Shown: positions 16,283 through 56,135, counted from the first letter of the whole stretch. The stretch: DNA of 62,144 nt, filler included, from Stramenopiles sp. TOSAG23-3 (GCA_900128585.1; 6 parts of 6 records of this genome joined end to end with filler, not necessarily neighbours in it), one strand, 5' to 3'. The notes: generated from the letters alone by a model not told the origin. Made by a program: numbers and translations.

Positions 16283-18196
16283 CTAGCCCAAGGCATAGTC
16301 CAAGTCAGCAATCAAATCTTCCACACTTTCGATTCCAATGGACAAGCGCAAAACGTCGTCTCCTGCACCGCAGGCTTCTCTCTGTTCTGTAGTCAACTGT
16401 CTGTGTGTAGTAGAAGCCGGGTGGAGTACCAATGATCGTGTGTCCCCAATATTAGCGAGATGACTGAACAATCGGCACCTTTCGACGGCTCGAACTCCAG
16501 ACTCAAAGCCTCCCTTCAACCCAATAGTAAACACTGAACCTGGACCTTTTGGGAGGTACCTCAGGGCGAGGTCATAATATGGACTGCTCTGCAGTCCCGC
16601 GTAAGACACCCAACTGACACCATCGTGCTGATCGAGGAAATCAGCAATTTGTCGAGCGTTGGCAACATGCCGGTCCATCCGCAAGGGCAGGCTTTCTATC
16701 CCAGTGAGGGTTATCGAGGCATTCATAGGAGACTGCGTCGGCCCTAAATCCCGAAGGGAAACCGCATGGGAAAACGTAGTAAACGCTAGGTTTCCAAATG
16801 TCTCAAAAAAATTAAGACCGTGGTACGCTGGCTCTGGCTGGGCAAGCGAAGGAAACTTATCATTCTGCGCCCAATCGAACTTTCCAGAGTCAACAACGCA
16901 GCCTCCCATGGCGTTTCCGTGACCAGAGATAAATTTTGTGGTGCTGTGTACTACCAGGTCGGCACCATGCTCAATGGGCTGGCACAAGTACGGGGTTGCC
17001 ATGGTGTTATCACATATCAATGGGACCCCCACCTCACGGGTCAGCTCTGAAAGCCTCTCTAAATCTGAAACTACACCGCCCGGGTTGGCCAGCGATTCGC
17101 ACCAAAGCGCTTTCACACCCTCTTTTTCAAGGGCAGTACGGACCGCGTCAAAATCATCGACATCGACGAAGTCGCAGCTCCACCCAAATTTTCCTATGGT
17201 TTTCCCAAACTGAGTTATGGATCCACCGTATAGTTTGTTGCTAGACACTATGCGATCGCCCGGTTCCATCAGGGCAAAGAGGGCAAGCAACTGTGCGGCA
17301 TGGCCACTGGACGTGCACGTAGCTCCTCGCCCGTTTTCCAGGTTTGCCACTCGCTCTTCCAGCACTGCGGTGGTAGGGTTAGACAGGCGTCCGTAAATGT
17401 TTCCAAAAGTCTGCAAATTAAATAGCGAGGCTGCATGCTCGACATCATCGAAGACGTACGACGTGTTCTGATAAATTGGGGTTACCCTAGCCCCCGTGGT
17501 GGGGCAAGGCGCCGCGCCAGCGTGGATTGCCCGTGTTGCGAAGCCGTCAAATTCCGGAGGCAGAGTTTGGGTATCGCTCGCTTCGTGATCGCTAGGCTTT
17601 TTCAGTTCGGCGTTTCCGCCACCAATAGGCCGCCGTTTACTAGAAATCACCTTCGAGTTAAAACCATGCCACCCAAGCTCCCCAAAAAGTCGGCTGAACT
17701 CAATTTTGGGACACCTGTCCATGACCACGTTCAACCCTGCATCTTCTGCCCGCTTCCGGCTGTCCTCGCACACAACCTCCAGCTGCATCCACACAGTCTC
17801 TGCCCCGATTCGAATGGCATCGTCAACAACACCACCAGCATCGGATGATTTTCGAAATATGTCTACCATGTCAATCTGTTCCCGAAGGTCGTCTGGGACA
17901 TCGTCCAGGGATGCATACACCGTCTCTCCCAGAAGCTTATCTCCCTTAGCCGCGGCGATGGGGTTAATGGGGAGTACACGGTAGCCCTTTGCTATCAGGT
18001 ACTTCATCGCAAAATAGGACGGGCGATTCCAATTCGTCGATGCCCCAACCATGGCTATTGTTTTAGTATCCCGTAAGACACGTTTGATGTAATCATCATG
18101 GTATATGATAGGCGATGCGCTCGAAGACAGGCACGCCACACACCCCTGAACGGTGAACGTCGCCCGTCCAATCGCCCGTACCCTGGTTAACAACAT
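16283..18196 (-). CDS. metY: Fusion of CoA-binding (YccU-like) domain and O-acetylhomoserine/O-acetylserine sulfhydrylase
   Basis: N-part TIAMVGASTNWNRPSY...DMVDIFRKS...VWMQL...MDRCPKIE; C-part TRAIHAG, PIYQNTSYVF, YGRLSNPTT, PLP-Lys motif HSTTKFISGHG, HLANIGDTRSLVLHPASTTH, RLSIGIE. Confidence 0.93.
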   Translation of the reverse strand: MLLTRVRAIGRATFTVQGCVACLSSSASPIIYHDDYIKRVLRDTKTIAMVGASTNWNRPSYFAMKYLIAKGYRVLPINPIAAAKGDKLLGETVYASLDDVPDDLREQIDMVDIFRKSSDAGGVVDDAIRIGAETVWMQLEVVCEDSRKRAEDAGLNVVMDRCPKIEFSRLFGELGWHGFNSKVISSKRRPIGGGNAELKKPSDHEASDTQTLPPEFDGFATRAIHAGAAPCPTTGARVTPIYQNTSYVFDDVEHAASLFNLQTFGNIYGRLSNPTTAVLEERVANLENGRGATCTSSGHAAQLLALFALMEPGDRIVSSNKLYGGSITQFGKTIGKFGWSCDFVDVDDFDAVRTALEKEGVKALWCESLANPGGVVSDLERLSELTREVGVPLICDNTMATPYLCQPIEHGADLVVHSTTKFISGHGNAMGGCVVDSGKFDWAQNDKFPSLAQPEPAYHGLNFFETFGNLAFTTFSHAVSLRDLGPTQSPMNASITLTGIESLPLRMDRHVANARQIADFLDQHDGVSWVSYAGLQSSPYYDLALRYLPKGPGSVFTIGLKGGFESGVRAVERCRLFSHLANIGDTRSLVLHPASTTHRQLTTEQREACGAGDDVLRLSIGIESVEDLIADLDYALG

Positions 18197-30070: not shown

Positions 30071-31774
30071 TCACCCGGTTCTCTTCCTTGATTTTCTATA
30101 CCATATTGACGCATACCCATGGTGCTCGCTCGCGTCCGCGTCCCCTTTCAAGTGGCTGTGGAACAGGGAGGTGACCTTTTCATACCCGTGCCGTTGAAAA
30201 AAAGGAAGCAACGACCGTTCGAAAGAGTCAAATGTGACCATATGGCTTGGAAGTTCATGATGCTTCCATTTCACCCATACGCCTTCCGTACTAATGGCTG
30301 GATCTGTTTCTCCTCCCTTCTCCACGCTGGAATAAATTTCATTCACAAATGCAAGAGGGTTTCTTTCAAAATACTTCACTTGCTGAAGGTCCCGTCTTGC
30401 CGATGGCGGCTCAACCATGTACGGGGGAGAGCAGTCGATGAACCACATTGGAACGTTCCGGTGCAAATGGCTGTAATAGGGCGTGCTATGGCATGGCATC
30501 AAAAAGTGAACCCTTTTCAGATCCCTACTGTTCGAAATTCCTTCGTTTCGCAAAAATCTCATGACACTTATCGGGCTCTTCTGGTGCACGAACGATAGGT
30601 AAGCCGCCATAACGGCATTCACAGCGACGATGACAGCGACACTCCTCTGCCCCCATTGGACAGCCGCCGGGGATGGTGATTTTTCTTTCCATTTGCTAGC
30701 AGCTCTACAAATGACGTCTAGTGCGTAGCCGCAATACACCAGGGCCATGGGAAGCAGCGGCAAGACAAACCGGAACTCTTTGTGCCCGCCAAAGCTGTAG
30801 ATTATCATTGCCCAAAGCATGGCATACCCCAGAACCCGGGGATCGCCGCGTCCCGCGTCCCGTTGAGACGCATCCTCGCGGGGCAGGGCCCACGCTTTTC
30901 TAATCCCATGGAGAAGAAACGGTACGAAAACCCCCAAGACCGTCGTGAACCCTTCCGTAAAGTACCAATAAAATGGGTGGGTGCCATACAGTTTGTCCAA
31001 ACCTTTGAAAACATTAAACTCCAAAAAGTTCCAAATAACGAAGGTCCATTCGCCATAAAACACCCTGTCAATGGCCAAGGATAGCAGCAACAGCCCAAAG
31101 GCCATCGGCAAAGCCAGCTTCAACACAAAATTGAAACGATCGATCCAATTCCTCATTCCGACCATCTCCGTCAGAGCGATGTATACCCACACGACCCCAC
31201 TTGTAGGCCGAAGGATCACCGCAAATCCAGCAAAGAACAGGGCTTTTACGTAGCTTTCGACGCCCTGGTCCCCAGCGCCCCGCTTGGCCCCCAGGGGCCA
31301 GTGAAACAACGACACCACGGTAACGACCGACTCGACAGAATTCGAAAACGTCCGGACGGTGCAAAAAAAGTTGAACCAGGAACACACGGAACAAAACAGT
31401 GCCCAGCTAGCGCTTTCGCGGCCAAATATCTTAAGCGCTAAGTAGTAAGTGTAGTAGTCCCCCACAGCCGCCACTACCCCCTGGATTACCCGTGGCAAGT
31501 ACGCAACCAGCGCCGGACTGTCCAAGCCAAGCAGTGCCAACATTTTGTAGGGAATGGCAAAAAATAGAAAGGGGTGTGCAGCGCCACGAAGTTTTGCCCT
31601 TGCTCTCCACTCCCATGTCAAATGTCCGTACCCAAAAACCATATTATGCGCCACTTCTGGCCCTTGCCAAAACTCATCCGGGTTGAAGTACGTGTCAACA
31701 ACAAGTGCATTCAACACCCGAAAGAGAACCAGGTAGAAAAAGTTCGGGCGAATACCCGACAGGCGCTTTAACAT
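30071..31774 (-). CDS. PIGB: GPI mannosyltransferase 3 (PIG-B/Gpi10)
   Basis: TYFNPDEFWQGPEVAHNMVFGYGHLTWEW, RTFSNS, LYGTHPFYWYF, HKEFRFVLP, FLMPCHSTPYYSHLH; multi-TM; likely ATG at 31774 (ORF track starts at TTG 31885). Confidence 0.95.
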   Translation of the reverse strand: MLKRLSGIRPNFFYLVLFRVLNALVVDTYFNPDEFWQGPEVAHNMVFGYGHLTWEWRARAKLRGAAHPFLFFAIPYKMLALLGLDSPALVAYLPRVIQGVVAAVGDYYTYYLALKIFGRESASWALFCSVCSWFNFFCTVRTFSNSVESVVTVVSLFHWPLGAKRGAGDQGVESYVKALFFAGFAVILRPTSGVVWVYIALTEMVGMRNWIDRFNFVLKLALPMAFGLLLLSLAIDRVFYGEWTFVIWNFLEFNVFKGLDKLYGTHPFYWYFTEGFTTVLGVFVPFLLHGIRKAWALPREDASQRDAGRGDPRVLGYAMLWAMIIYSFGGHKEFRFVLPLLPMALVYCGYALDVICRAASKWKEKSPSPAAVQWGQRSVAVIVAVNAVMAAYLSFVHQKSPISVMRFLRNEGISNSRDLKRVHFLMPCHSTPYYSHLHRNVPMWFIDCSPPYMVEPPSARRDLQQVKYFERNPLAFVNEIYSSVEKGGETDPAISTEGVWVKWKHHELPSHMVTFDSFERSLLPFFQRHGYEKVTSLFHSHLKGDADASEHHGYASIWYRKSRKRTG

Positions 31775-32354
31775 TTTTGGGTGAAACAGAAAACTTCTCT
31801 GCCGTATATACAGAAACAAACTGACAAGCAAACAAAAACAAAAAATCGGCTCAAGTAACACAATTCCAAAGGACAATGAAAACAAGGGCAGATTGAAAAG
31901 AGGAAAGAGAAGCGAAAGATAGAAAATTGCAAACTTACAACATGTTAGAACGACTATTCACATCGGTATTACTATATTTATCATAAGATTCTTATTTTCT
32001 TCACCAGACGACAGACACATTAATTATGATGAGGAGGAGGGAGGAGGTGCTTCTTCTTCTTCTTGGTTATTACATCTTATTTTCTTTTTTTTCACTTCTC
32101 TTCTTCTTCTTCTTTGTTCTTATTAATATTACTTCTTTTGGTGGTGGTATTTTATTATTAATTATTAATTATTCATCGTCACAGAAGAAATTTGAAATAA
32201 AAAGTAGAATAGACTTCTTTAAAAAGGAAAGAGATTTTTTGTTTGCCTATGACTGTATAATCGTGTGGTAAAATGTATTGAATGAAACCGTAAGGGCGAA
32301 CACCGTTGCAATTGCGCAGGAATACGTTTTAAGTTTAAAAGGGAGAGCACGTCC

Positions 32355-35315
32355 ATGCAGATGGGTACAGGTGCTTCATCAACCCTTTCTGAATATACGC
32401 CAGACACGGGGCCAACGGTGTGTTCGCCGTTTGACCTTGACTCGGCGGCGTCAATTGTCGATGGGATACCGTTGGATCGTCGGATTGTGCTTTTGGGAGA
32501 GTCTACCCATGGCACGGAAGAGTTCTATAGAACTCGCGTTGCTATCACGAAACGGTTGATTGAAGAGCGTGGCTTCACCGCGGTTGTTTTCGAAGGGGAC
32601 TGGCCGTTCTTTGAGACTGTGGCAAAGTATGCCAAGGGAAAGACGCAAAATCCTTCCCCGTATCCTGCGAAGGAGATATTTCCACCTTGGATGTGGCGAA
32701 ACCAGTGCATGAAAGAATTTTTCGACTGGTGCAAGCTTAGGTCGGACGAAAAAACACCAGAACTATTTGGTATGGATTGCTACGCATTGTTTGAGTCAAA
32801 GCGTCTATTGTTGGAGTTTTTGGAAAAGCACGACCCGGTCTTCCACAAAGAAGTGGCGGGGCGCCTGGCTTTCATTGACAAATTTACAGACGCGCACGCT
32901 TACGGGGATGCGGTGGTCAACGGCAACCTTGGTCGTATTGCACATCATGTCCAAGACACGCTGACGAAAATACAGTCTCGGCTTCAATGGAATTCGGACA
33001 AGTACGAGTGTACTCCCTTAGAGCGGTTGAACGCCGAGCAGAATTGCGAAGTCGTCATTGCTGCAGACGAATATTACCGCAAATGCGTCTCCGAGCCTGC
33101 GGGTTCCCAGGCCTCTTGGAACGCCCGGGACCAGCACATGACCACTACGCTACTTCGAATCCAGGCGCACTTGAGCGACCCAAAAATAATTGTGTGGGCG
33201 CACAACTCTCACGTCGGAGACTCTACTGCGACTACTAGAGGCGGAGATTCCTTTGAAAAGAACGAGACATGGAATTTGGGACAAATGGTGCGAGCCACAT
33301 TTGGGCACCACAAGACTTGGATCGTCGGGCAATACACGTACGGTGGGACTGTGACGGCGGCCCAGCGATGGGGAGGCGAGCATGAAGATCGCAAGTTAAA
33401 CCCTGCGCTTCCAGATTCGTACGAAGGTGCCCTTCATCGTGAAGTTCAGCCTCACATGGGCAATGCGATTGGGTTTTATTTCGCCACCGCCCCGTTCGCC
33501 GATCCTGAGGGGAAAGAAGAATCGAAAGAGGGAGCCGTGGGGGGCACTTTCAGCGCTGCGCGCGCCTGCGTACGGGCGGCATTGAAGGCGAACGAACCCG
33601 TTGCAAGAGCGCTGACAGAAATTCTTCAGCCGAGTGTCTCACGGTTGCAGCGGTGGGTCGGTGTCAGCTACAAAGCGGACACGGAACGGCAAAGCCACTA
33701 CGGGGCTTTGGTGTTGAGTCAGTGTTACGATCAGATCGTGTACGTGCACTCTACCCGCGGCCTTCTCCCGATCGTGAAAGTGAAAAAAATTGCCGATGCG
33801 CCTGATCCGAAGGGAAAGAGTGTGTCAGCCACGTCCATAAATACGCGCTCTACAAACAAGCGGTTGCTGAAGGAATACCGCCGAATCTTAAAGTCAAAAC
33901 CGCCAGGGATAGAGGCGAGGCCAAGTGAGACCACAATGCTGGAATGGCATTTCGTGTTAAGTATGGACAAACCCCCGTACACTGGAGGCAGTTACCACGG
34001 CCTTCTTAAATTTCCACCAGAGTACCCCATGCGACCGCCCGAATTTCGCATGATAACGCCAAGCGGAAGGTTTGAAACGAACACACGATTGTGCCTTTCC
34101 ATGTCTGACTACCACCCCGAGTCTTGGAACCCAGGCTGGAGCGTAGAAACGATGCTGGTTGGTTTGCAGTCGTTCATGTACGAGGAATCGCATGCGATTG
34201 GGTACATTTCGGCGTCAACAGCGACGCGGCAAAAGTTTGCCAAGCAGAGCCACGAGTTCAACGCTAGCAACCCTACCTTTGTCGAAATATTCGGGGACTA
34301 CGATTATGAGGCAGCAATTGCGGCGTGCGGGAAAGCGCAGCACGAGGAGGAAGTGGGCGTGCAAGAATCCGTCTGTCGATTTTGTTTGTCATCAGAGGGG
34401 GAGTTGATCTCGCCATGCATGTGCCGTGGGTCGAACGAATGGGTTCATTTGGAGTGCTTGCGCCAATGGCAGAAAAACGTTCTGTTGACTCAATCAACGC
34501 ACCCCAAGTACCAAACCTCGATTGACCGCATCTGCAACGTTTGCTTGGAACCATTTACGGGGAAGGGCATCCCGATTAGTCGACACGAGCAGATCATGTC
34601 GTACATTGGTGGCGAAGAGATTGCGGGGATGGTGAAAGCGGGAAACCTGTTGGTGTCTACAAGGGAGTCTTCGCGCGAAAATTTAGAACTGATTGCCCAG
34701 CATCCCGAAATAACATCGCGGCTCATGACGTGGACAAAGGCCGTTTTTCTCATGATAAACAGGGGCAGAAATGGCGGCCTGTTGGCGGTGTCATGCTCTC
34801 AACCGATTGACGACCCTCCGGCAGACAGTATGCTCAGTAGAAAAGAAAGAAAGTTGTGGGCAGAGAGGAAGAAGAAAGGGGCGAAGAAGGGCTGGACCAT
34901 CCAGCACTATGATGGCGGGCCAATGGAACGGGGAGAGGGAATGTGCGTTGTGCACGTGAAAGCAGAAGCAGAAGTCGATTTCAATAGAAAGGGCCTGTTT
35001 GTGCCTCCCCATTTTGTGTACGGCGAGTACGAAGTTGTTGAAAAAATCCTGCAGAAACACAGCCTTTCGGCTGGCAACGATTTTTCGACCAAAATTCATG
35101 TTATTTGGGGATGTGGGGGCTGGGGCGGCACGCAATTACTTGCCGAGATTGCCAGAGGGGGCTGGGGATTGGTAGAACGCAAAGATTATTTAGCGAGCAG
35201 GCCAGACCCCGCCATGCCAACGGATTTCGAATTGGATTTCGATTGGAGCAGGATGATATCCATGGCGAAATGTGCCCCCAAAACGGAGTACACACGAGGG
35301 CGAAAGAAAAGGTAG
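32355..35315 (+). CDS. Erythromycin-esterase-like + Ubc6/UBE2J-type E2 + RING-CH + DUF179-like multidomain protein
   Basis: Ere: LLGESTHGTEEFY, EGDW, FPPWMWRN, SWNARDQHM, VWAHNSHVGD; E2: KRLLKEY, YPMRPP, TPSGRF, RLCLSMSDYHPESWNPGW; RING-CH: CRFC..CMC..H..C..CNVC; DUF179-like: GGPM..WGCGGWGGTQLLAEIARGGW. Confidence 0.9.
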   Translation: MQMGTGASSTLSEYTPDTGPTVCSPFDLDSAASIVDGIPLDRRIVLLGESTHGTEEFYRTRVAITKRLIEERGFTAVVFEGDWPFFETVAKYAKGKTQNPSPYPAKEIFPPWMWRNQCMKEFFDWCKLRSDEKTPELFGMDCYALFESKRLLLEFLEKHDPVFHKEVAGRLAFIDKFTDAHAYGDAVVNGNLGRIAHHVQDTLTKIQSRLQWNSDKYECTPLERLNAEQNCEVVIAADEYYRKCVSEPAGSQASWNARDQHMTTTLLRIQAHLSDPKIIVWAHNSHVGDSTATTRGGDSFEKNETWNLGQMVRATFGHHKTWIVGQYTYGGTVTAAQRWGGEHEDRKLNPALPDSYEGALHREVQPHMGNAIGFYFATAPFADPEGKEESKEGAVGGTFSAARACVRAALKANEPVARALTEILQPSVSRLQRWVGVSYKADTERQSHYGALVLSQCYDQIVYVHSTRGLLPIVKVKKIADAPDPKGKSVSATSINTRSTNKRLLKEYRRILKSKPPGIEARPSETTMLEWHFVLSMDKPPYTGGSYHGLLKFPPEYPMRPPEFRMITPSGRFETNTRLCLSMSDYHPESWNPGWSVETMLVGLQSFMYEESHAIGYISASTATRQKFAKQSHEFNASNPTFVEIFGDYDYEAAIAACGKAQHEEEVGVQESVCRFCLSSEGELISPCMCRGSNEWVHLECLRQWQKNVLLTQSTHPKYQTSIDRICNVCLEPFTGKGIPISRHEQIMSYIGGEEIAGMVKAGNLLVSTRESSRENLELIAQHPEITSRLMTWTKAVFLMINRGRNGGLLAVSCSQPIDDPPADSMLSRKERKLWAERKKKGAKKGWTIQHYDGGPMERGEGMCVVHVKAEAEVDFNRKGLFVPPHFVYGEYEVVEKILQKHSLSAGNDFSTKIHVIWGCGGWGGTQLLAEIARGGWGLVERKDYLASRPDPAMPTDFELDFDWSRMISMAKCAPKTEYTRGRKKR

Positions 35316-35821
35316 CACGTGCTGCTTAGTGGCGTTCAAGACAAATTTACGTACGAAGAGATAAGTAACCAATACAAAAAAAATTCAAAATCGACGTGAT
35401 AGATATAATAAATAATATTATATAATATCCTGTATTATTATAATATATCCTCCTGTATAATAATATGTAGTAATAAATAAATAAGTTCTTAGAATAATAA
35501 TAAAAACAATCTCCTATAATATTAATAATAATCCTAAGATTATAAAAAATAAGGTCACACAGCATCAAACAAAAATATTATAAAAAATATTTAATTTTAT
35601 TATTATTATTACTGTATTATATTAGATAAATATTAGATAAATGGGGAGTAGTAAGGTTTAAATTTAAATTATACCTCTTGATTCTTGATGATGGAAAAAA
35701 TCGGTGTGTTCGAAAGAGGTGAAGAGAACAGAGTCGTATCAGTAGCCACCAATTGAAACCGTACACCATTAAAGCAAATTGGAGGTTGTTTTGGCTGTAA
35801 CATCTGCGTAGTAGTACTAAA

Positions 35822-37120
35822 ATGGCGGGGCGGTCGGCGGATATCCCAGGCTCTGTGGGCGAAGCTGCCGTGGCAACCCTTAGAAACACCGAGTCTCACA
35901 ATAGTTGGGTGGAGCCCAAGTTGCAGAAGACCGGGGCAGGCCCTCCGCCCGCTCTAATGTCGAACAATGAACCGGTTTTGAACAAAGCGGAACGGTACAG
36001 TTTGCCCAAGGAGGCATATGTATTTTTGACGTGCATCAGTGTTTGCAACCTGCTTGTCTTTATCGAGCGCTGCATTATCCTGCTGGCAGCCCTGGCGGAC
36101 GATGACGGTGACCAGTTCTACGGAATGTCGGCGTTCGCTTTGGCACTTACGTTTTCCCTATGTGTCGGAAACCAGTACATGGCATGGGTGTACGTTACAA
36201 GAGTAAACGTTTACATGATGATCAACTTCTTCTTGTCCTTCACTCTCCTGGTGGGGTACCACTCCCTGTATGCACTGAACCACGAGGCCCGGTGCTCCGA
36301 GCGCGACCGGATAGAAGATGTGTGCCTCCTTACCTTTTACCTTTTGGTAGCCTTCTACGTCGTGATCGCAGTCATCTTTGCTAAACTCCGGGAGAGTATG
36401 GCATGGCTATTTTTCAAACGTGCAGGGGCGAACCCAAAGTTGAGGAAACTGTACAATGCGTACCTTTTGATTCGGAGTTCCTTTTCTTTGAATATCTTGT
36501 GTGCAGTGCTCGTGCTGGTGTCTACATGGAAACTGGTCGTCTTGCAGCACACCGTAATGAAGGAGGGTCTGGCGTTGGGGATTGTCGCCATGGTGGGAGT
36601 TACGGTCGTGATATCAATGGCAGAAATATACGGTAAGATTTGGCTCAGGAGCGGGATCGAGGGGGAGGACCATGGTTGGATCAGACGGTACAAATTTTGC
36701 AGTTGCGTTTTGCCACTGTTCACCATCGGCGTGCTCTGTTGGGGCAACATTGTCCATGTAGAATTGTTTAAATCTGGCAAACTGGTGTACAATTCGACGG
36801 ACGAAAGTACCAAGAAAATAGAGACGCACTCTGATGCTGAATTTTTGTTTGCGTTGGTGTCGACATCATTGCTCTGCTGCATCGTCCTTGTGATGCGCGT
36901 TTTAGTGTGGTGGAAGCTTGCTTACCTAACGAACAACTTTGGCAGCGGTTTGCCCGAGAAAGTGTTGCAAGACAAGTTCTTCTTTTCATTCGAACGCACG
37001 TGCCCACTGGTTGCAAAGCACTTGTGCTGCAATGAACAAAGCACTCGAACTGATGAAAACCTTGGGCGAAGTTCGCGTCGATACAAAAGCAAGCCCAAGG
37101 TTGGCGGCCATGGAAGCTAA
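35822..37120 (+). CDS. Multi-pass membrane protein of unknown function
   Basis: 432-aa ORF with roughly eight hydrophobic segments. Confidence 0.78.
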   Translation: MAGRSADIPGSVGEAAVATLRNTESHNSWVEPKLQKTGAGPPPALMSNNEPVLNKAERYSLPKEAYVFLTCISVCNLLVFIERCIILLAALADDDGDQFYGMSAFALALTFSLCVGNQYMAWVYVTRVNVYMMINFFLSFTLLVGYHSLYALNHEARCSERDRIEDVCLLTFYLLVAFYVVIAVIFAKLRESMAWLFFKRAGANPKLRKLYNAYLLIRSSFSLNILCAVLVLVSTWKLVVLQHTVMKEGLALGIVAMVGVTVVISMAEIYGKIWLRSGIEGEDHGWIRRYKFCSCVLPLFTIGVLCWGNIVHVELFKSGKLVYNSTDESTKKIETHSDAEFLFALVSTSLLCCIVLVMRVLVWWKLAYLTNNFGSGLPEKVLQDKFFFSFERTCPLVAKHLCCNEQSTRTDENLGRSSRRYKSKPKVGGHGS

Positions 37121-43592: not shown

Positions 43593-46500
43593 TTATATCG
43601 TGGATTTCGGCAAAGTTCCCGATTTAAGCTGTCCAAATTCTTTCTTGCGCCTCGCTGATTTTTTTCTCGGTCTCTGTGGGGCAGCTACCGTAAGTGAGGT
43701 AGTGTTCCCTTGCTGTTTAGCCTGCCGCAGCCGCAGCATCAACAATTTGTTTTGCTCCTCGTTTTGAGCCACCACCGCTTTCATATCCGCTAGTTTCTTC
43801 CTGTTTTTCTCCTTCCGCTTTTCTGCCGTCGCAGAATCGGCTGCCAGGAGCGGGTTATGAACCAATGTAAGCTCGAACATGTTGTTTTCAAGATCAGGAT
43901 CAGTCTCAGTGGATTTCCTGTTACGAAACCTTGCTGCCCCCCACATACGCGCGATGACCTCTGGCGTTTTGCCGTAGATCTCAAACACAAAGACAATCAT
44001 ATAATACGTTAAACTGAAAAAGACAACCACTAAAATCAAATACGTTATTAAATCCCGCTGCCATGCATACGCGCCTGATTTATCGTTTTCAAACCGGTCT
44101 GACTCGAACATGACCCCCGCCAAAGCAACGAGAATCGCAGATGCAAGAAGAACTTGCTCCACAGTGTTGTAGTCCCAGAAATAGTGCCGCTGCTCTTTTT
44201 TCCGATAACCAAAATGTTTGCCTTTTCCGTCGGCGAGACCATACCGTCCAAACTTCACGTCACCCTTCCCGCGCCGTATGCTGTTCTTTCTCTTGCCTGC
44301 TACATAGGACCTAGCGTTTTTTATTCGTTCGTGGATACGGACGTGTTCTGGGTCCCCTTCCTTGGCCTTTAGGGCGTGATTGGCGAGAGCCTCTTGCCGT
44401 TGGGAAGTTGACATGTAAGGTTTGTGCTTTACTTGCAAGACATATGCGATGAACAGCACGAGAACTACCGTTGAGAGCTGAAAGCCTGGGTTGGCCCGGA
44501 ATATCAGCGCCGCCGCAGCGATGGCACCTTTTCTTGCTATAATGAATATTATCCAAAAGGACTTTCCGGGCAAAAAGTGGTAGTACATTTTGTGCAACGC
44601 AACTCTAATCTGGTACACGGCAAAGTTAGAAGACGTCTCCACAGTGTTCCCGATCCCAGCGGCCCGAAGCAGTTGGTCCTCCTTTATCAAAAGCTTCTTG
44701 GAACGAAGAAGGATGAGCATTCCGGCTGGAAACCCGAATGTCATGCCCACTATGGCGACAAGTGCTGGCGTTTTCAGCTGCATCTGAATGTGCCGGGGAT
44801 CATCGCACCGACAAGGGCCACTATCGCAATCGAAAGAGGTGAATTCCGTGTAGAGGTACCCGTCATACGCTCCTGGCAACGGGTTACAATTAAATATCTC
44901 CAACGCTTGCCTTGTCACTGTGACGTAGAGGAAGTACAGCATCAACAAAAAAGTTGCAGTGTAGCGAGAACCCAAAAACTTATCTCTGTTCCTCCACGGC
45001 GTCCCCCTGATTACGTGCTCGTACGTAAGAGTGCATAGCCATGTAAACATCAAGATGCCGCAGCAAATTATCGGGGAGTATATGGCCATATAGAACTTCG
45101 TTACGTACGGAAAGCCTGGTATTAAGCACTCTGGCGCGACTACGTCTATATCGAAGCTAAACACGCTCAAAACACGGTACAACGATTTCAATGTCGGTGG
45201 CCAATCGACATCAGCATCGGAAAACATCGACAAGACTTGGAAATAGTCCCAACCGATGTTGATGAATGCCAGATTAAACTCTTGGCGGTCAAGCTGGTAT
45301 ACCATCACGCAAAGAGCTATTAGCCCGAGCAAAATTAAAACTAAAAATAGTATCGGGTTGCTTGGGCACTCTTCGCATTTGTTGTCAATTCGGTGATGGG
45401 TCCCAGAAGTGCACATGGCACACCGATACCCTGGTGTGCACGAGCACTCGCCGTAAAACTCGCCCGATGACGAATTTCCCTGCGGTGCGCACGATGCGCA
45501 GTCTTCGGGATTCCCGGCTCCACATTCGACCCGTGCCATCACATTGTACATGTTTTCGAGGGTGCTGCCTAGCCGTCCACCGAATTTACTGCACGCACTA
45601 ACCAGACCTGCCGATTTTTGAGAATCTCGGAGGCAGGCTTTCAAACACGATAAACTCTTGGAACGCGGCAACCATTGCGCTTCGCATTGGCATATAGATT
45701 GGACTGCTGCAACACACGCCTCTCCCCCCGATCTAACGCGACACTGCAAGTCTGATGTACATGACGTTTTTCCGGCATTGTTCCGTTCTTCCCAATCTGT
45801 GCATTTATCCTTTTCGTGGAGGTATTCTGGCGCGCAGGAATTGTTTCCTTTGCAAGCTTCTTTCGGGATGCACGCAATGAAATCAAAACACTGCTCTTTT
45901 TGGGTCAGAGAAGGAAACTGCTTTGTTATTGTAGGGCTCGTAAGAAGTCGCGACTTGGGGCATCTCTGTTGTGCTCTCTTAAAATCATCCTTTGCTTTCA
46001 GACCCATAATATCGTCCACGGGCTGCCCCTGGCCTTCTGTGATATCTAAGGGCTCCCTCCAAAAGCCGGACGAACTGCTTGGCCTAAGGGCCGTATTCGG
46101 TACACAACGAGCGCCTTGTGGGCACAGTGCACACAGGTCGCCTTCTTCGCCCCAGTAAACCTGTTGTTTGCCGTTGTTTAAGACTCCCCCTATCTTGCAG
46201 ATTGCATAAATTAAAGACGAATCCATCATTTCCAGAATGGGTATCGTAGTACTTTCTTGGAGAGCAACGGCGAGCGACATGTTCTTTGCCCCCACAACGG
46301 TTTCCGGGGTGGTGCAAGTAACATACGGCAGCCCGTCCATTGGGTGGTATTGGTGCCACTGCGCGTCTGAGCAAGATGTTCCAAACATGGACAGTGTTGC
46401 CTGGGACGGCACCCCTCCAAAGTTTGTGCCTCTGACTTCCAATGTGTCAGCCTGCGCATTGTAGGGCCTTGGGTTCACTTGCTGGATTTCGGGCGGTTGG

Positions 46501-49500
46501 TAATCCCATGGAACATGCTCCGTTGAATCGCGCCCATACACGCTGACTGTAACGGTTAAGTTTCTTCCAAAGCCCAACGGTGCGCATATCGTTATTGTAT
46601 CATGCGCAAAAACGGATTTGCACAGGCACTCATGGTACCTTGTTTGGGCGTCCTGGCACGTTAAGTGGTCTTTTTTAGCCGCTAATGATCCATCAAACGC
46701 AAGAAATGGACCCCTAGAGTCCCACCGCGAGTTTATGCACTTTTCATTTTTCCAAGAGCACTTGTCCGAGTCAACAAGGCTGCACGTCTCCTCTGACTGG
46801 AATAAGGAACACTTTCCCACCCATACTTTCAGGATATGCTTTGCCGGTCCAAAATTAATGCCTTGGAGTGTGATCATTTTCCAATTAGTGCACCTCCGAG
46901 CAAATACATCTGGGTTGTCATTTCTCTCCTGTGCCGACGCAGAGTACACCCGACCTTTCCACGTGTGTAAATTTTCCCAGTCCTGTGCATCACAGCCGTC
47001 AGTGGGGCCTGTGGCGGGAGAAACCGACATGATTGAGGGCGCACCGTAGGAAAATGGCGCGCCTTCGCTTGGAACCCCTGCGACAACGATAACTAGGTGC
47101 AAATTATGCCCAACCCCTTCCGGTATTCTGAACGTAGCCTCCGTATGTGATTTTGACCACTCTTTAGTCTTGTTAATTCGAATGGAACTATCGGGCTCAC
47201 AAAACTTTGAGCTATTCACACAGCGCAGTTCCAAATATGCCGTTGAAAGCGTGGGTGGTCCAAAGTTATCCCCTGCAATCGTGTATGTCAAATAGTCTCC
47301 TGTTTCAGGGTGCCTTCCTGACGTTGGGCTTGTCTTGTTTGGTGTCAAAGAATATATCACTGCTCGGCTGTAAGTAAATGCATCTTCATGCAGATCCGAC
47401 TGCAACGAGCTTGCTTCTACTAACGCACTCATTAATTTCCCTTCCCCTGGAGCAACTGTGCACTGTATGTGTTTGTGGTCTAAAACGTTTGGCGAAGCAC
47501 AGTTGTATGAATTAAGAATGCCGTACTGTTCTTCGGGGAACTTATTTGTGTTTGGGACAAGTCTGACTTCCTGCCCACCCCCACAAAATGTGCCGGTAAG
47601 GAGTTCGTTGTTCTCCGTTAGTGAGCACCCGAAGTTATCACCACGAATATCCAGCAACGCCCCCCCCCGTGGTACTTCCACTCTTTGGAGTAACTGAATG
47701 AATGTTCGGCTTGGAGTACGATAAACTAATCCCACGACCTTCGGGACTCTGCTCGTTGACGAATAATTTCAATAATATGCCTGGTCCCTGGCCGTCCGGC
47801 ATCTTAAATATAATTTTTTCGTCGCTCCAACTGACGATCCTTTTCTCTTCGACTAAATTTAGATCGTCGAATGTTCTTGACTCCCCTTTTCGATAATCAT
47901 TCTGCGAGTCGATTTTCACCGTTATGTTTCCGAAATTCTCAGTGCCAAAGTTTTCTCCTTCAATAACGTAGTTTAGATTACTGTCTTCGCCCTCTCTGCC
48001 ACCGAATGTGCTTACCGAACTGGCCACCTCCCCGGTATGATTTACTCGCATCACTTGTTTCCCGTCAACTACGTAGTTTGCATTTAAAGTCGGGGGCAAA
48101 AAATCAATTTCTGCTTTAACCCCACCCGTGTCTTCTCCTTCTGTCGACGACTTTTGCGACCCTTTCCAGACATGCAAAGGCTGGTGCAACCCCGCCCCTG
48201 CCGGCATTCGAAATACAACCATTACAATATTGCCATCCGCATTCTTTAGGACCGATAATACGTTGCTAAAGTGCCCTGTCACCTTTTCGTCGGTTTTACA
48301 CTCGGCGTTATAAACACATTTCCCCGGCCCTGGGGGCTGCAGGCACATTCCAACGCTTACGCACAATTTGCTTGGGTCCTGGTCAAACCTGTCGCCAGCA
48401 ATCCATATGAGGCTATTGCGAGGATCAGGCTCGTCTTCAACAAAATATTCGTCATCGTAGGATTTTGTAGTGAATTTCAGTTTTCTTAAATTCGTGGCGT
48501 TGTCGCTTATTATAATTGGCGCTAACGTATCGAAGGGGAGAGTGTTTGACCACGCTCTCCCTTTGCTCTCTTTCCCAACTGAAACATTGACGTAGCCGTT
48601 ATTATCGTAAATGTTTGCTTGAATGCTCTTGTGACCATACTGTACAAGGGCGTCAGGGTCCTTGAACACATCGACACCGTTTACATGAAGCTTTCCACAC
48701 CCTTTATTGTTGGTTACAGGTTCCACAGCTGCTGACTCACAAAAATTGTTTCCCTCAATTTTCAAGCGTTTTTGGCAACAATCTTCACCGGAACAATCAC
48801 CTTTGCACTTCGCATTTTCGAAAGTCTCAAGCCGAACGTTGTAAATAACAGGGTCATTGTAATCAAAATATAATTCTTGTCCACCATACACTTCATCGTT
48901 GTTGTCTGCTGAATTTATTCTGACCCTCACGCGCCGGGCTTTCCCAAACCCAACTGGCATATTAAAGGTTAGTTTTTCTATTCCTCCAAACGTTGAATTT
49001 TTACCGACGGGTGCTGTTCGCGGTAAATCTGGGGCAAGAATTTTGTAATTTTTTTCGACGGAAAAATCATCGAACAAGATTTCAACCGTGTTGGGGGCAC
49101 CGGCTTTGCTGTAAAACCCCATGTTTATACCACTCAAAGTAATTTTAATATGTGTTTGGCTCCCTTGCGATTGTTCAAACCCATGTGTTGGGCCAGACTT
49201 TGGTGTAAGGCTGATCAGTTTGGGTTTGGCGTATGAAGTTGTCGCTTTGACATCGTTATTTTTAGCGGACCTTTGTCCGCGGACTTCTATGTACCACAAG
49301 TGTCCTACCCCTTCTTCATCTTGTCCACCAATCCCTGGACTGGTTCTGCAAGTGATTTCCACTGAATCTTTGGTAACCTCGCAGTCTTCAGTTACGTCAT
49401 AGAAATTACCAGCAACGCCGTAAGATACTTTCCCCAAATACGGTCCCGGTGTACCCATGGGCCCGAAGTTTTTCCCTTTCAAAACAACCGTCTGGTTTCC

Positions 49501-55500: not shown

Positions 55501-56135
55501 GTTGACCCTTCTTTGCAAAACACGTTTGCTCCGCCGCACGGTAAACCATCTTTATCATTTGGATCTGTTGCGCCTTTTTTGCTTCCCGCGTTTTCATGAT
55601 CCTTGCTAGGGTCGCCATATCTTCCCGCCGGGCACTCGTGATGCCACCCGTCATATTCAGGGTCATCGGCACCCCCTCCCATACAGTACTCGTAGGGTGG
55701 GCAATCTATTTCGTGGGTTCTTGTTTCCCTGCTCCCATCTGCTGACCCATCTGCAAACGAACCTGCGCTAACCACCTTACTGGAGGACGACCCGCTCGGG
55801 CAAAAACATTTGGAGCCCTCAGTCTGGTTAGTCTTGCACATTGGGTTATCATAACATTTGTGATAACATCGACCGTCATTTTTTTTTTTTTCATTCGAGT
55901 CTACCGGGCCAGGTTTATCCGAGCGTATTTGGTTATCACAGATTTGGTCTCCGCTGCCTTGAAGGCAGTAATAACCTTGTGGGCATACCTTTGCCTCGGA
56001 GGACGATTCCATGGCTCCGCCATAATACCCAGCTTGTATTTCTAATTTACTAATATCGTTGTCCCCGCCCGTCTTGTACGTGTTTAATGTGCCATTATTG
56101 TCCGCGGGGTCGGGGCAGTAGAAACCAGCAAGGCA
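43593..56135 (-). CDS. Giant cadherin + IPT/TIG-repeat + Cys-rich + nine-TM protein (nonagonal-cadherin-like), split into three ORFs by two frameshifts and 5'-truncated
   Basis: Cadherin linkers (NVNDAP, DVNEAP, DVNEPP, LDYE, DPD) in 50379-56012; TIG repeats (G.NFG...C...G.G..L.W) across all three ORFs; nine hydrophobic helices in 43593-47735; frame stays open upstream of ATG 56012 to the contig end (CLAGFYCP...). Confidence 0.88.

What the first reader, a model, noticed from the sequence alone, without database searches (positions are those of the whole stretch)
32355..35315. Single-polypeptide esterase-E2-E3 machine: erythromycin-esterase domain fused to a Ubc6-type E2, a RING-CH E3 and a DUF179-like domain
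Seen: one uninterrupted 986-aa ORF with an Ere-like domain (~32430-33770; GESTHG and HNSH intact), an E2 with its catalytic Cys (TGC 34092-34094 in RLCLSMSDYHP, plus TPSGRF, diagnostic of Ubc6/UBE2J), a complete C4HC3 RING-CH (~34374-34545) and a YqgE/AlgH(DUF179)-like tail. No TM segment is evident. Known: Ubc6/UBE2J2 is the partner E2 of the RING-CH ligase Doa10/MARCH6, both normally ER-anchored; Ubc6/UBE2J2 can also form Ser/Thr ester-linked ubiquitin; Ere-family hydrolases are largely bacterial. Inference: a soluble, self-contained ubiquitin ligase coupled to a bacterial-type hydrolase. The hydrolase might sense or cleave a small molecule and control ligase activity, or might reverse ester-linked ubiquitin. 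I know of no described protein with this architecture.
Basis: partly seen in the sequence, partly recalled or inferred. Interest (0 to 1): 0.85.

Follow-up and report, generated by a model that had tools for sequence, protein, structure and literature searches.

The report
Esterase–E2–RING–DUF179 fusion ubiquitin ligase
A marine protist gene encodes one soluble protein that joins a bacterial-type esterase, a Ubc6-type ubiquitin-conjugating enzyme, its matching RING-CH ligase domain and a domain of unknown function, a conserved but undescribed machine that also occurs, split into two neighbouring genes, in giant viruses.

Summary
The 986-aa ORF at 32355-35315 (+) carries four domains confirmed by HMM and by predicted fold: an Ere-family hydrolase with an intact catalytic tetrad, a J2-type (Ubc6/UBE2J2) E2, a C4HC3 RING-CH and DUF179/AlgH. 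No transmembrane segment is found.

It is not a chimera. An independent metagenome and RNA-library contigs tile it without mismatch. With my own domain HMMs, 58 of 269 collected proteins (the window's own included) share all four domains. Named sources include stramenopiles and dinoflagellates.

Three findings are new here:
- RING-CH+DUF179 is the common core architecture: 95 of the 150 best cluster representatives.
- Contigs listed as giant-virus MAGs carry E2-RING-CH-DUF179 as one gene. An Ere gene lies upstream on the same strand in 5 of 6 loci. None lies beside 49 stand-alone viral J2-type E2 genes.
- The residues that Ubc6 needs to ubiquitinate serine hydroxyls are conserved.

Best reading: a soluble cis E2-E3 ligase with DUF179 as the targeting or partner domain, and a hydrolase that works in the same pathway. 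The hydrolase's substrate is unknown; ester-linked ubiquitin is my leading guess, at about 0.25.

None of my ten literature searches found a description of this architecture. It is a new variant of known kinds.

The parts
32355..35315 (+). Whole ORF, 986 aa including the stop codon. A possible alternative start is the second ATG at 32361 (MGTGASS, an N-myristoylation-like MGxxxS pattern; the consensus is recalled).
   Evidence: the start context is; homologue P0001 begins MGAGASS
32412..33770 (+). Ere-family (erythromycin-esterase-like) two-lobed hydrolase domain, aa ~20-472. Catalytic positions: E49 (32499-32501), H52 (32508-32510), E80 (32592-32594), H283 and H286 (33201-33212).
   Evidence: Pfam 1.7e-76. 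VIA-align: BcR136 2qgm Z 31.7, rmsd 2.8, 366 aligned; EreC 6xcs Z 28.2. The catalytic positions are conserved in 34-35 of 35 sequences. The EreC catalytic residues E47, H50, E78 and H289 are from PMC7979712 passages.
33777..33842 (+). Low-confidence linker, aa 475-496, between the Ere and E2 domains.
   Evidence: pLDDT below 50. Covered by DNA contigs X7 33528-33827 and 33801-34827, and by RNA-library contigs X15 33618-33795 and 33772-33976.
33843..34313 (+). J2-family (Ubc6/UBE2J2-type) UBC domain, aa 497-653. It contains the GRF loop G571-R572-F573, catalytic C580 (34092-34094), the active-site loop S582, S584, D585, Y586 and H587 (34113-34115), and a flap of the same length as in Ubc6.
   Evidence: PDB sequence search: Ubc6 3.8e-47, UBE2J2 2e-44, next E2 about 1e-12. 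VIA-align: Ubc6 Z 23.3, rmsd 2.1, 48% identity; UBE2J2 Z 21.8; other E2s at most 17.3.
34374..34544 (+). RING-CH (RINGv) domain, C4HC3, aa 674-730.
   Evidence: Pfam 2.4e-9. PDB sequence hits: c-MIR 2d8s 5.8e-5 and Doa10 RING 2m6m 9.2e-5. All eight ligands are invariant.
34599..35273 (+). DUF179 / AlgH / YqgE (UPF0301) domain with inserts, aa ~749-973. The GGP motif is G854-P856 (34914-34922).
   Evidence: Pfam 4e-8. C-terminal AF2 model: pLDDT 90.5, pTM 0.85. The six best Foldseek hits are all DUF179 structures. VIA-wide: 2gs5 Z 13.1, rmsd 3.5, 170 aligned.

Best explanation
The ORF is a real, conserved gene of a marine protist. The sequence is present in RNA libraries. Its nearest named relatives are stramenopiles. 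It encodes a soluble single-chain ubiquitin ligase.

Shown here: the four domain identities, the intact catalytic or ligand residues in each domain, the lack of any transmembrane segment, and the genetic coupling of the parts.

Inferred mechanism:
1. E1 charges C580 of the J2-type UBC domain.
2. The RING-CH, about 20 residues downstream, engages that UBC domain in cis, or that of a second molecule in trans. This mirrors Doa10/MARCH6-type RING-CH ligases working with Ubc6/UBE2J2.
3. The GRF loop, S582, S584 and the general-base His587 are conserved. Ubiquitin can therefore go to Ser/Thr hydroxyls as well as to lysines.
4. DUF179 is predicted to pack rigidly against the RING-CH and is its partner in the commonest, two-domain form of the family. 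I infer that it is the substrate- or partner-binding module, possibly a link to an AAA+ unfoldase or protease.
5. The Ere hydrolase is catalytically intact and acts in the same pathway.

Odds for the Ere step:
- about 0.25: it hydrolyses oxyester-linked ubiquitin, as editing or as self-protection of an auto-ubiquitinating cis ligase;
- about 0.25: it acts on a small-molecule ester or lactone, as a sensor or for substrate preparation;
- about 0.1: it acts on an ester or cyclic imide in a damaged protein;
- the rest: unknown.

The confidence given below is for the core claim: a real gene, a cis E2-E3 ligase, and a hydrolase and DUF179 that are functionally coupled to it.
For: Domains and folds.

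Catalytic conservation in 35 full-length homologues of 36-82% identity:
- Ere: E49 34/35, H52 34/35 (one sequence is truncated), E80 35/35, H283 35/35, H286 35/35.
- E2: C580, G571, R572, F573, S584 and H587 all 35/35; S582 33/35.
- RING-CH: all 8 zinc ligands 35/35.
- DUF179: GGP 35/35.

The J2 determinants S89 and H94 are needed for Ubc6 activity, and H94 for serine modification (PMC11649903, sections read).

Not a chimera:
- Contigs of an independent metagenome (X7) tile 32129-35800 with 0-1 other letters per piece inside the ORF. One 1027-base piece, 33801-34827, runs from just before the E2 through the RING-CH into DUF179.
- RNA-library contigs of three studies (X15, X16 and oligo-dT X19) lie on the ORF with no other letters and no joints.
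- With my own domain HMMs, 58 of 269 collected proteins have all four domains. Named sources include Incisomonas, Gymnodinium, Symbiodinium, Effrenium, Amoebophrya, Odontella and Copromyxa.

Coupling of Ere to the ligase, beyond the fusions:
- Six distinct giant-virus-MAG loci carry E2-RINGv-DUF179 as one gene. An Ere gene lies upstream on the same strand in 5 of them: directly adjacent in 4, and 1.9 kb away in 1. The sixth locus has only 545 bases upstream.
- 0 of 49 viral loci with a stand-alone J2-type E2 have an Ere ORF in the fetched flanks.

RING-CH+DUF179 as the core:
- 95 of the 150 best cluster representatives have only these two domains, and 45 of them are complete.
- The C-terminal model has pTM 0.85.

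DUF179 and proteolysis:
- Plastid DUF179 proteins are CLPC1-trap interactors (PMC8889267, passages).
- In an E. coli metG* screen, knockdown of yqgE, like knockdown of lon, shortened lag time (PMC11634777, passages).
Against: - No biochemical datum exists for any member.
- The full-length model has pTM 0.51. I could not read inter-domain geometry, so cis engagement of E2 and RING is inferred, not seen.
- The Asn of the TPN(GRF) element is Ser in 31 of 35 sequences. The Thr-flap threonines of Ubc6 are not conserved, and the position of Ubc6 E119 is S/T/N/C in 33 of 35. The chemistry may therefore differ from Ubc6.
- The Ere domain is only 16-18% identical to solved Ere-family structures, so its substrate cannot be read from them.
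- L004, L005 and L006 are close relatives. The viral linkage therefore rests on about three independent lineages.
- The viral assignment rests on IMG/VR bin names, AT-rich compact gene content and an ESM Atlas lead with score 0.76. No capsid gene was seen in the flanks.
- RNA-library contigs show presence in RNA libraries, not proof of transcription.
Confidence: 0.72

Rival explanations
1. Ubiquitin-esterase reading. The Ere domain specifically hydrolyses the Ser/Thr oxyester ubiquitin linkages that the J2-type E2 makes. It would act as a built-in editor or eraser, for instance protecting the cis ligase from its own auto-ubiquitination.
For: The J2 determinants for hydroxyl ubiquitination are conserved. 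Ubc6 auto-ubiquitinates strongly, and faster with Doa10 (PMC11649903, section read). The Ere catalytic tetrad is intact. Ere is linked to the E2-containing forms: fusion in 58 proteins and adjacency in 5 of 6 viral loci. Among the 150 best representatives, no protein has Ere joined to RINGv+DUF179 without an E2.
Against: No Ere-family enzyme is known to act on proteins; that is recalled, not searched. The fold's characterised members hydrolyse macrolactones or small esters (PMC7979712 passages). No docking or complex evidence was obtained.
Confidence: 0.25
2. Small-molecule reading. The Ere domain binds or hydrolyses a lactone or ester metabolite or toxin. The purpose would be to gate ligase activity, or to expose a hydroxyl that the J2 E2 then ubiquitinates, which would be non-protein ubiquitination.
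For: The nearest relatives of the Ere domain outside the family are a large set of stand-alone bacterial Ere-family proteins: 33-36% identity over 90-100% of the domain, 2068 hits in all. Characterised members act on small esters or macrolides. The authors of PMC11649903 raise as an open question whether J-family E2s modify non-protein molecules (Discussion).
Against: There is no ligand information. It is not obvious why giant viruses would keep such a sensor next to the ligase gene. The domain is only 16-18% identical to EreC and BcR135/136.
Confidence: 0.25
3. Protein-damage surveillance reading. The Ere domain recognises or hydrolyses ester or cyclic-imide lesions in proteins, and the ligase tags what cannot be repaired.
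For: Among longer bacterial relatives of the Ere part, 7 clusters are fused to protein-L-isoaspartate O-methyltransferase (PF01135), which makes protein methyl esters, and 8 are fused to a phosphoribosyltransferase domain. DUF179 is linked to Clp and Lon proteolysis in two papers.
Against: This is purely guilt by association. Most bacterial relatives stand alone. The chemistry is not demonstrated for any family member.
Confidence: 0.1
4. Artefact reading. The ORF is a chimeric assembly or a read-through of two genes.
For: No single laid contig in the four runs spans the whole ORF. Neighbouring pieces at the Ere-E2 linker overlap by only 24-27 bases. A split form does exist elsewhere, in viral contigs.
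Against: The tiling is mismatch-free in an independent metagenome and in RNA libraries, with no joints. Fourteen runs hold at least half of the sampled words. The same fusion occurs in 57 other proteins, including transcriptome ORFs marked complete. The window protein sits in a 15-16-row clade in which every member is fused, with 99-100 SH-aLRT support.
Confidence: 0.01

Closest known systems
Ubc6/UBE2J2 working with the RING-CH ligases Doa10/MARCH6 (ER-associated degradation)
   Same: The E2 subfamily is the same: Ubc6 3.8e-47, Z 23.3, 48% identity, with the GRF loop and S89/S91/H94 equivalents conserved. The RING class is the same: C4HC3, with the Doa10 RING among the best PDB hits.
   Different: Here E2 and RING are one polypeptide. 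There is no tail anchor and no membrane domain. Asn is replaced by Ser in TPxGRF, and the flap threonines are not conserved. There are two extra domains, Ere and DUF179.
E2/E3 hybrid enzymes UBE2O and BIRC6 (recalled, not tested here)
   Same: A single chain carries both the conjugating and the ligating function.
   Different: As I recall them, those proteins have no RING and use a different UBC subfamily. They have no hydrolase and no DUF179.
Erythromycin esterase family: EreC, B. cereus BcR135/BcR136
   Same: The two-lobed fold is shared (Z 28-32), and the four catalytic positions E47/H50/E78/H289 are conserved.
   Different: Identity is only 16-18%. Macrolide hydrolysis is not implied. The domain is fused to, or genetically linked with, ubiquitin machinery.
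DUF179 / AlgH / YqgE (UPF0301) proteins of bacteria and plastids
   Same: The fold is shared (2gs5 Z 13.1), as are the signature motifs GGP and WG..GW..Q...EI.
   Different: Those are stand-alone proteins of about 185 aa, of unknown function. Here the domain carries inserts and is fused C-terminally to a RING-CH.
Viral RING-CH ligases (KSHV K3/K5, poxvirus LAP)
   Same: They share the RING-CH fold: K3 Z 4.3, and many LAP/MIR hits in BFVD. They are also carried by viruses.
   Different: Those are membrane proteins without an E2, Ere or DUF179. BFVD held no protein combining RING-CH and DUF179.

Membership tests
Erythromycin esterase family (Pfam PF05139) | Match to the family HMM above the curated cut-off | tested here: met
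   258.7 bits against a cut-off of 26.4; the match covers profile positions 1-358 of 358.
Erythromycin esterase family (Pfam PF05139) | Two-lobed Ere fold | tested here: met
   2qgm Z 31.7, rmsd 2.8, 366 aligned; EreC 6xcs Z 28.2, rmsd 3.5, 375 aligned.
Erythromycin esterase family (Pfam PF05139) | Catalytic residues E47, H50, E78, H289 (EreC numbering; PMC7979712) | tested here: met
   E49, H52, E80 and H283/H286 are conserved in 34-35 of 35 homologues.
Erythromycin esterase family (Pfam PF05139) | Macrolide lactone hydrolysis | not testable with these tools
   A sequence search of the PDB finds BcR135/136 only, not EreC, at E<=0.01.
J2 family of E2s (Ubc6/UBE2J2) | UBC fold with a catalytic Cys, closest to Ubc6/UBE2J2 | tested here: met
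   C580 is present in 35 of 35.
J2 family of E2s (Ubc6/UBE2J2) | GRF loop in place of the HPN loop | tested here: met
   G571, R572 and F573 are present in 35 of 35. The preceding Asn of TPN is Ser in 31 of 35.
J2 family of E2s (Ubc6/UBE2J2) | Three-residue insertion after the Cys, with the conserved His (H94), plus S89 and S91 | tested here: met
   The alignment to Ubc6 across the active-site loop has no gaps. H587 35/35, S582 33/35, S584 35/35.
J2 family of E2s (Ubc6/UBE2J2) | Thr-flap joining helix 2 to helix 4 | tested here: inconclusive
   The length is the same (ungapped), G616 is 35/35 and S617 is 33/35. The flap threonines are absent, and the E119 position is S/T/N/C in 33 of 35.
J2 family of E2s (Ubc6/UBE2J2) | C-terminal tail anchor in the ER membrane | tested here: not met
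   No hydrophobic stretch is found; the maximum KD19 is 0.92. The RING-CH and DUF179 follow the UBC domain instead.
RING-CH (RINGv, MARCH/Doa10/K3 type) | C4HC3 zinc-ligand pattern and HMM match | tested here: met
   37.6 bits against a cut-off of 21.6. All 8 ligands are invariant. PDB hits are c-MIR and Doa10.
RING-CH (RINGv, MARCH/Doa10/K3 type) | Membrane-spanning segments, typical of MARCH, Doa10 and K3 | tested here: not met
DUF179 / AlgH / YqgE (UPF0301) | HMM match and fold | tested here: met
   33.8 bits against a cut-off of 27. The six best Foldseek hits are all DUF179 structures. 2gs5 Z 13.1.
E2-E3 single-chain ligase (functional class) | E1-dependent, E3-independent ubiquitin transfer | not testable with these tools
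   This needs biochemistry.

The most novel reading that the evidence does not exclude
The protein is a write-and-edit machine for ester-linked ubiquitin. A J2-type E2 and RING-CH in cis place ubiquitin on hydroxyl groups. The Ere domain is then either a new class of ubiquitin oxyester hydrolase, unrelated to known deubiquitinases, or it opens an ester or lactone to create the acceptor hydroxyl. DUF179 is a degradation-adaptor domain. That would also give a first molecular function to the bacterial and plastid AlgH/YqgE family. The module is traded between protists and giant viruses.
Probability: 0.2. Interest if true: 0.85.

Novelty: new variant of a known kind. Interest (0 to 1): 0.66.

Why it matters
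- It is a natural 'Rosetta stone' for the Ubc6/UBE2J2 and RING-CH partnership. Because it is soluble, it could make J2-type non-lysine ubiquitination much easier to study than the membrane-bound Ubc6-Doa10 pair.
- It ties DUF179/AlgH/YqgE to a ubiquitin ligase. This domain is widespread in bacteria and plastids and has no known function. Together with its reported Clp and Lon connections, the link gives a testable hypothesis: that it is a degradation adaptor.
- It ties an Ere-type hydrolase to ubiquitin machinery by two independent lines of genomic evidence, fusion and conserved adjacency. This opens the possibility of a new kind of ubiquitin esterase.
- The module is carried by contigs listed as giant-virus MAGs of marine protists, so it may act at the virus-host interface.

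Tried and rejected
- No whole genome is held for the window. I could therefore not ask whether the organism also has a canonical tail-anchored Ubc6 or a Doa10.
- The viral records are not held for whole-record searches. I scanned the fetched flanks by Pfam instead. They hold topoisomerase IA, a UvrD-like helicase, acyl-CoA dehydrogenase-cytochrome b5, dihydroxy-acid dehydratase, a glutamine-synthetase-like protein and a RING protein. No capsid gene was found.
- Complex prediction on the Ere part against the E2-RING-DUF179 part gave no answer, score 0.00. This is no evidence either way.
- Inter-domain geometry of the full-length model could not be read. No coordinates or PAE are available, and the second-look alignment listed single-domain matches only.
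- BFVD held no viral protein combining RING-CH and DUF179. It gave separate RING-CH proteins and one phage DUF179.
- The ESM Atlas gave one lead at score 0.76: a 121-member viral E2-RINGv-DUF179 cluster. That is below the level that counts as more than a lead.
- The careful tree search did not finish. Only the quick IQ-TREE tree (SH-aLRT support, midpoint-drawn) is used. Rows P0015, P0057, P0256 and P0260 were dropped, 4 of 67.
- Ten literature searches found no description of the fusion. A call before these failed on a too-short term. One search was swamped by unrelated words that begin with 'Algh'. The passages checked in PMC4327156, PMC3239186, PMC8762339 and PMC7213576 were irrelevant.
- Supplementary files of papers could not be seen. 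Domain-architecture tables in the supplements of ubiquitin-system surveys such as PMC4327156 might list this combination.
Full report
**Observation.** The window is eukaryote-like and intron-poor, with long ORFs: a calpain with EF-hands, a kinase and an Alg9-like mannosyltransferase. The ORF at 32355-35315 (+) is uninterrupted and encodes 986 aa. GC content in the two 2-kb windows over the gene is 0.50 and 0.46, within the window's range of 0.37-0.50.

Pfam finds four domains above their curated cut-offs:
- Erythro_esteras, aa 69-467, E 1.7e-76
- UQ_con, aa 503-612, E 1e-14
- RINGv, aa 674-730, E 2.4e-9
- DUF179, aa 793-946, E 4e-8

No 19-residue stretch is hydrophobic enough for a membrane helix. 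The maximum Kyte-Doolittle mean is 0.92 in the window protein. Of 21 other family members checked, only P0029 exceeds 1.6, at 1.94.

**Domain identities by structure.** The full-length AlphaFold2 model, built on 35 sequences, has mean pLDDT 83.7 and pTM 0.51. Its low-confidence linkers are at aa 475-496 and 662-669.
- The Ere part matches BcR136 (2qgm: Z 31.7, rmsd 2.8, 366 aligned), BcR135 and EreC (6xcs: Z 28.2, rmsd 3.5, 375 aligned).
- The E2 part matches yeast Ubc6 (Z 23.3, rmsd 2.1, 48% identity) and UBE2J2 (Z 21.8). All other E2s score 17.3 or below. By sequence, Ubc6 scores 3.8e-47 and UBE2J2 2e-44, against about 1e-12 for other E2s.
- A separate model of aa 651-986, built on 32 sequences, has pLDDT 90.5 and pTM 0.85. 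RING-CH and DUF179 are therefore predicted as one rigid unit.
- For that model, the six Foldseek hits with E<=0.001 are all DUF179/AlgH structures. In the search that does not depend on Foldseek, 2gs5 scores Z 13.1 (rmsd 3.5, 170 aligned), well above the next rows: 2gzo at 6.8, the RING-CH of c-MIR at 5.3 and the Doa10 RING at 4.9.

**Catalytic integrity.** I aligned 35 full-length homologues of 36-82% identity.
- The positions equivalent to the EreC catalytic residues E47, H50, E78 and H289 (PMC7979712, passages) are E49 (34/35), H52 (34/35; one sequence is N-terminally truncated), E80 (35/35), and H283 and H286 (35/35 each).
- PMC11649903 defines the J2 family by a GRF loop replacing HPN, a three-residue insertion after the Cys carrying a conserved His, and a Thr-flap. 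It shows that S89 and H94 are needed for activity, and H94 specifically for serine modification (sections read).
- Here GRF, C580, S584 and H587 are 35/35, S582 is 33/35 and D585 is 31/35. Position 586 is aromatic in all 35.
- Three features deviate. The Asn before GRF is Ser in 31 of 35. The flap has the same length as in Ubc6 but lacks its threonines. The E119 position is S/T/N/C in 33 of 35.
- All eight RING-CH ligands and the DUF179 GGP motif are invariant.

**Is it a chimera?** No.
- Fourteen public runs hold at least half of the sampled words of the stretch, and six RNA runs hold part of it.
- I laid four of the 24 listed runs. Contigs of an independent marine metagenome (X7) tile 32129-35800 with 0-1 other letters per piece inside the ORF. 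They include 33528-33827, which crosses the end of the Ere domain, and a single 1027-base piece at 33801-34827, which runs from just before the E2 through the RING-CH into DUF179.
- RNA-library contigs without any other letter lie at 33618-33795, 33772-33976 and 34179-34372 (X15), at 33398-33638, 33609-33759 and 34723-35018 (X16), and at 32294-32444, 32833-32983, 33918-34065 and 34208-34347 (oligo-dT library X19). No joint was seen.
- Caveats: all four runs are stored as contigs. No single piece spans the whole ORF. Neighbouring pieces over the Ere-E2 linker overlap by only 24-27 bases. Presence in an RNA library is not proof of transcription.
- The stronger argument is conservation. Of 79 hits to the whole protein, 56 carry Ere, E2 and RINGv by precomputed Pfam. 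With my own domain HMMs, 58 of 269 collected proteins, the window's own included, have all four domains.
- Named sources of four-domain proteins are a chrysophyte, Incisomonas marina, Odontella aurita, Amoebophrya, Symbiodinium, Effrenium, Gymnodinium smaydae and Copromyxa protea, plus a 616-aa sequence labelled Didymoeca costata. The last two names come from transcriptomes, where contamination cannot be excluded.
- In a quick tree of 63 rows, the window protein pairs with P0001 (81% identity) inside a clade of 15-16 rows in which every member is fused (SH-aLRT 99-100).

**The family is modular.** A search with the C-terminal 336 aa found two sub-architectures. One is complete proteins of about 476 aa with E2+RINGv+DUF179, starting MSNKRLL at the E2 N-terminus. 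The other is proteins with RINGv+DUF179 only, from Achlya hypogyna, Seminavis robusta and Amphidinium massartii.

An exhaustive HMMER search of 1.84 billion cluster representatives gave 1236 hits at E<=1e-3, 297 at <=1e-10 and 39 at <=1e-30. The best 150 break down as follows:

| Architecture | Count |
|---|---|
| RINGv+DUF179 only (45 begin with M and have a complete DUF179) | 95 |
| DUF179 only (mostly fragments) | 19 |
| E2+RINGv+DUF179 | 13 |
| All four domains | 10 |
| RINGv only | 10 |
| E2+RINGv | 2 |
| Unusual domain order | 1 |

The soluble RING-CH-DUF179 protein is therefore the common core, and the four-domain protein is an elaboration of it.

**Split form in giant-virus MAG contigs.**
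- Scanning IMG/VR with the three-domain alignment gave 56 loci. Six distinct loci encode the full E2-RINGv-DUF179 protein: L001 (the same contig as L002) and L003-L007. All six are on contigs that IMG/VR lists as giant-virus MAGs. A further 49 encode a stand-alone J2-type E2. One, L057, gave only a short match.
- An Ere gene lies upstream on the same strand in L001 (gap of about 340 bases), in L004, L005 and L006 (30-41 bases between ORF boundaries), and in L003 (1.9 kb away, with two ORFs on the other strand between). L007 has only 545 bases upstream and cannot be judged.
- L004, L005 and L006 are close relatives of one another, so about three lineages are independent.
- As a control, 0 of the 49 loci with a stand-alone E2 have an Ere, RINGv or DUF179 ORF in the fetched flanks.
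- The two halves of L001 align end to end with the corresponding halves of the window protein: 30% identity with E 8e-79, and 39% identity with E 7e-112.
- These contigs have 20-28% GC and compact genes: topoisomerase IA, a UvrD-like helicase and others. No capsid gene was seen in the flanks.
- An ESM Atlas lead at score 0.76 points to a 121-member cluster with the same three domains, whose members with a taxon record are viral, with Nucleocytoviricota the commonest phylum.
- In the quick tree, the forms without Ere in the same chain fall in at least two places, and the label needs five changes. Fusion, fission or transfer therefore happened more than once. I cannot give a direction.

**Origin of the Ere part.** Outside the family, its nearest relatives are a large set of stand-alone bacterial Ere-family proteins of about 430-453 aa, at 33-36% identity over 90-100% of the domain. 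Examples are Leptolyngbya and Gemmatimonadales, among 2068 hits in all. Among longer bacterial relatives, 8 clusters are fused to a phosphoribosyltransferase domain and 7 to protein-L-isoaspartate O-methyltransferase.

**What is known about DUF179.**
- Plastid DUF179-1 and DUF179-3 are CLPC1 interactors. DUF179-3 was enriched 4.6-fold in the CLPC1 trap and is co-expressed with ubiquitin and autophagy genes (PMC8889267, passages).
- In an E. coli metG* screen, knockdown of yqgE, like knockdown of lon, shortened lag time. The authors call YqgE uncharacterised (PMC11634777, passages).
- Both papers place the domain near regulated proteolysis. Neither gives a mechanism.

**How it most likely works.** Shown here: domain identities, intact active sites, solubility, and genetic coupling of Ere with the E2-containing ligase by both fusion and adjacency.

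The rest is inferred from established knowledge of the Ubc6/UBE2J2 and RING-CH pair:
- E1 loads C580.
- The RING-CH, tethered about 20 residues after the UBC domain, activates E2~Ub in cis or in trans.
- His587 and the rewired active site allow transfer to hydroxyls as well as to lysines.
- DUF179, rigidly attached to the RING, selects the substrate or recruits a partner.
- The Ere hydrolase acts on the product or on the substrate.

My odds for the hydrolase are about 0.25 for ubiquitin oxyester hydrolysis and about 0.25 for a small-molecule ester or lactone. I give about 0.1 to esters or imides in damaged proteins, and the rest is unknown. A cis E2-E3 should auto-ubiquitinate strongly, as Ubc6 does with Doa10. 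A built-in eraser of ester-linked ubiquitin would therefore make biological sense, but nothing here shows it.

**Comparison and novelty.** Each of the four parts belongs to a known family. The protein fails two features that define the canonical relatives: the tail anchor of Ubc6/UBE2J2 and the membrane domains of MARCH and Doa10.
- It works like an E2/E3 hybrid, but unlike UBE2O and BIRC6 (recalled) it contains a true RING.
- My ten literature searches found no paper describing an Ere-E2-RING-CH-DUF179 protein, a RING-CH-DUF179 ligase family, or the viral split pair. Supplements could not be read, and most subscription papers are outside the library.
- Public databases do hold many members under automatic names.
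- I rate it a new variant of known kinds. It is real, widespread and uncharacterised.

Noticed in passing
L008-L056 (viral contigs): 49 IMG/VR loci, many on contigs listed as giant-virus MAGs, encode a stand-alone J2-type (Ubc6/UBE2J2-like) E2. They match the family E2 HMM at 1e-32 to 1e-46. Some ORFs are longer (248-333 aa) and may carry tails. I found no paper holding both 'Ubc6' and 'giant virus'.
   Followed up: partly
window 32361 (second ATG): If translation starts at the second ATG, the N-terminus reads MGTGASS, and the closest homologue starts MGAGASS. This fits the MGxxxS N-myristoylation pattern (recalled consensus). It could give peripheral membrane attachment in this clade only, because other homologues start differently.
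   Followed up: partly
window 32026-32271, especially 32082-32114: A CT-rich low-complexity stretch lies just upstream of the gene. Many unrelated metagenome and RNA contigs pile up and break off there (depth 44.8, with many loose ends). It looks like a simple repeat shared among organisms.
   Followed up: no
window 16283-18196 (-): An ORF of 637 aa fuses a CoA_binding_2 domain (2.5e-34) to a Cys/Met-metabolism PLP enzyme (8.3e-118). This is an unusual combination.
   Followed up: no
window 50379-56012 (-): An ORF of 1877 aa has cadherin-like repeats and a weak match to the E1 FCCH domain (2.5e-8). The preceding ORFs at 43593-47735 and 47638-50340 are also very long, and the first of them has a TIG domain.
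   Followed up: no
window 30071-31885 (-) and 35822-37120 (+): The flanking genes are an Alg9-like GT22 mannosyltransferase (5.5e-102) and a 432-aa multi-pass membrane protein with no significant family match. Neither has an evident link to the ligase.
   Followed up: partly
L001 461-1207 (+): The giant-virus MAG contig that carries the split pair also encodes a separate RING-H2 finger protein (zf-RING_2, 3.2e-16), an ATP-grasp protein, a HAD hydrolase and a glutamine-synthetase-like protein.
   Followed up: no
alignment A1, between window aa ~384 and 430: Alveolate members (dinoflagellates, Amoebophrya) carry an insert of roughly 100 residues in the C-terminal part of the Ere domain. In the window protein the corresponding region is a short helical segment.
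   Followed up: no
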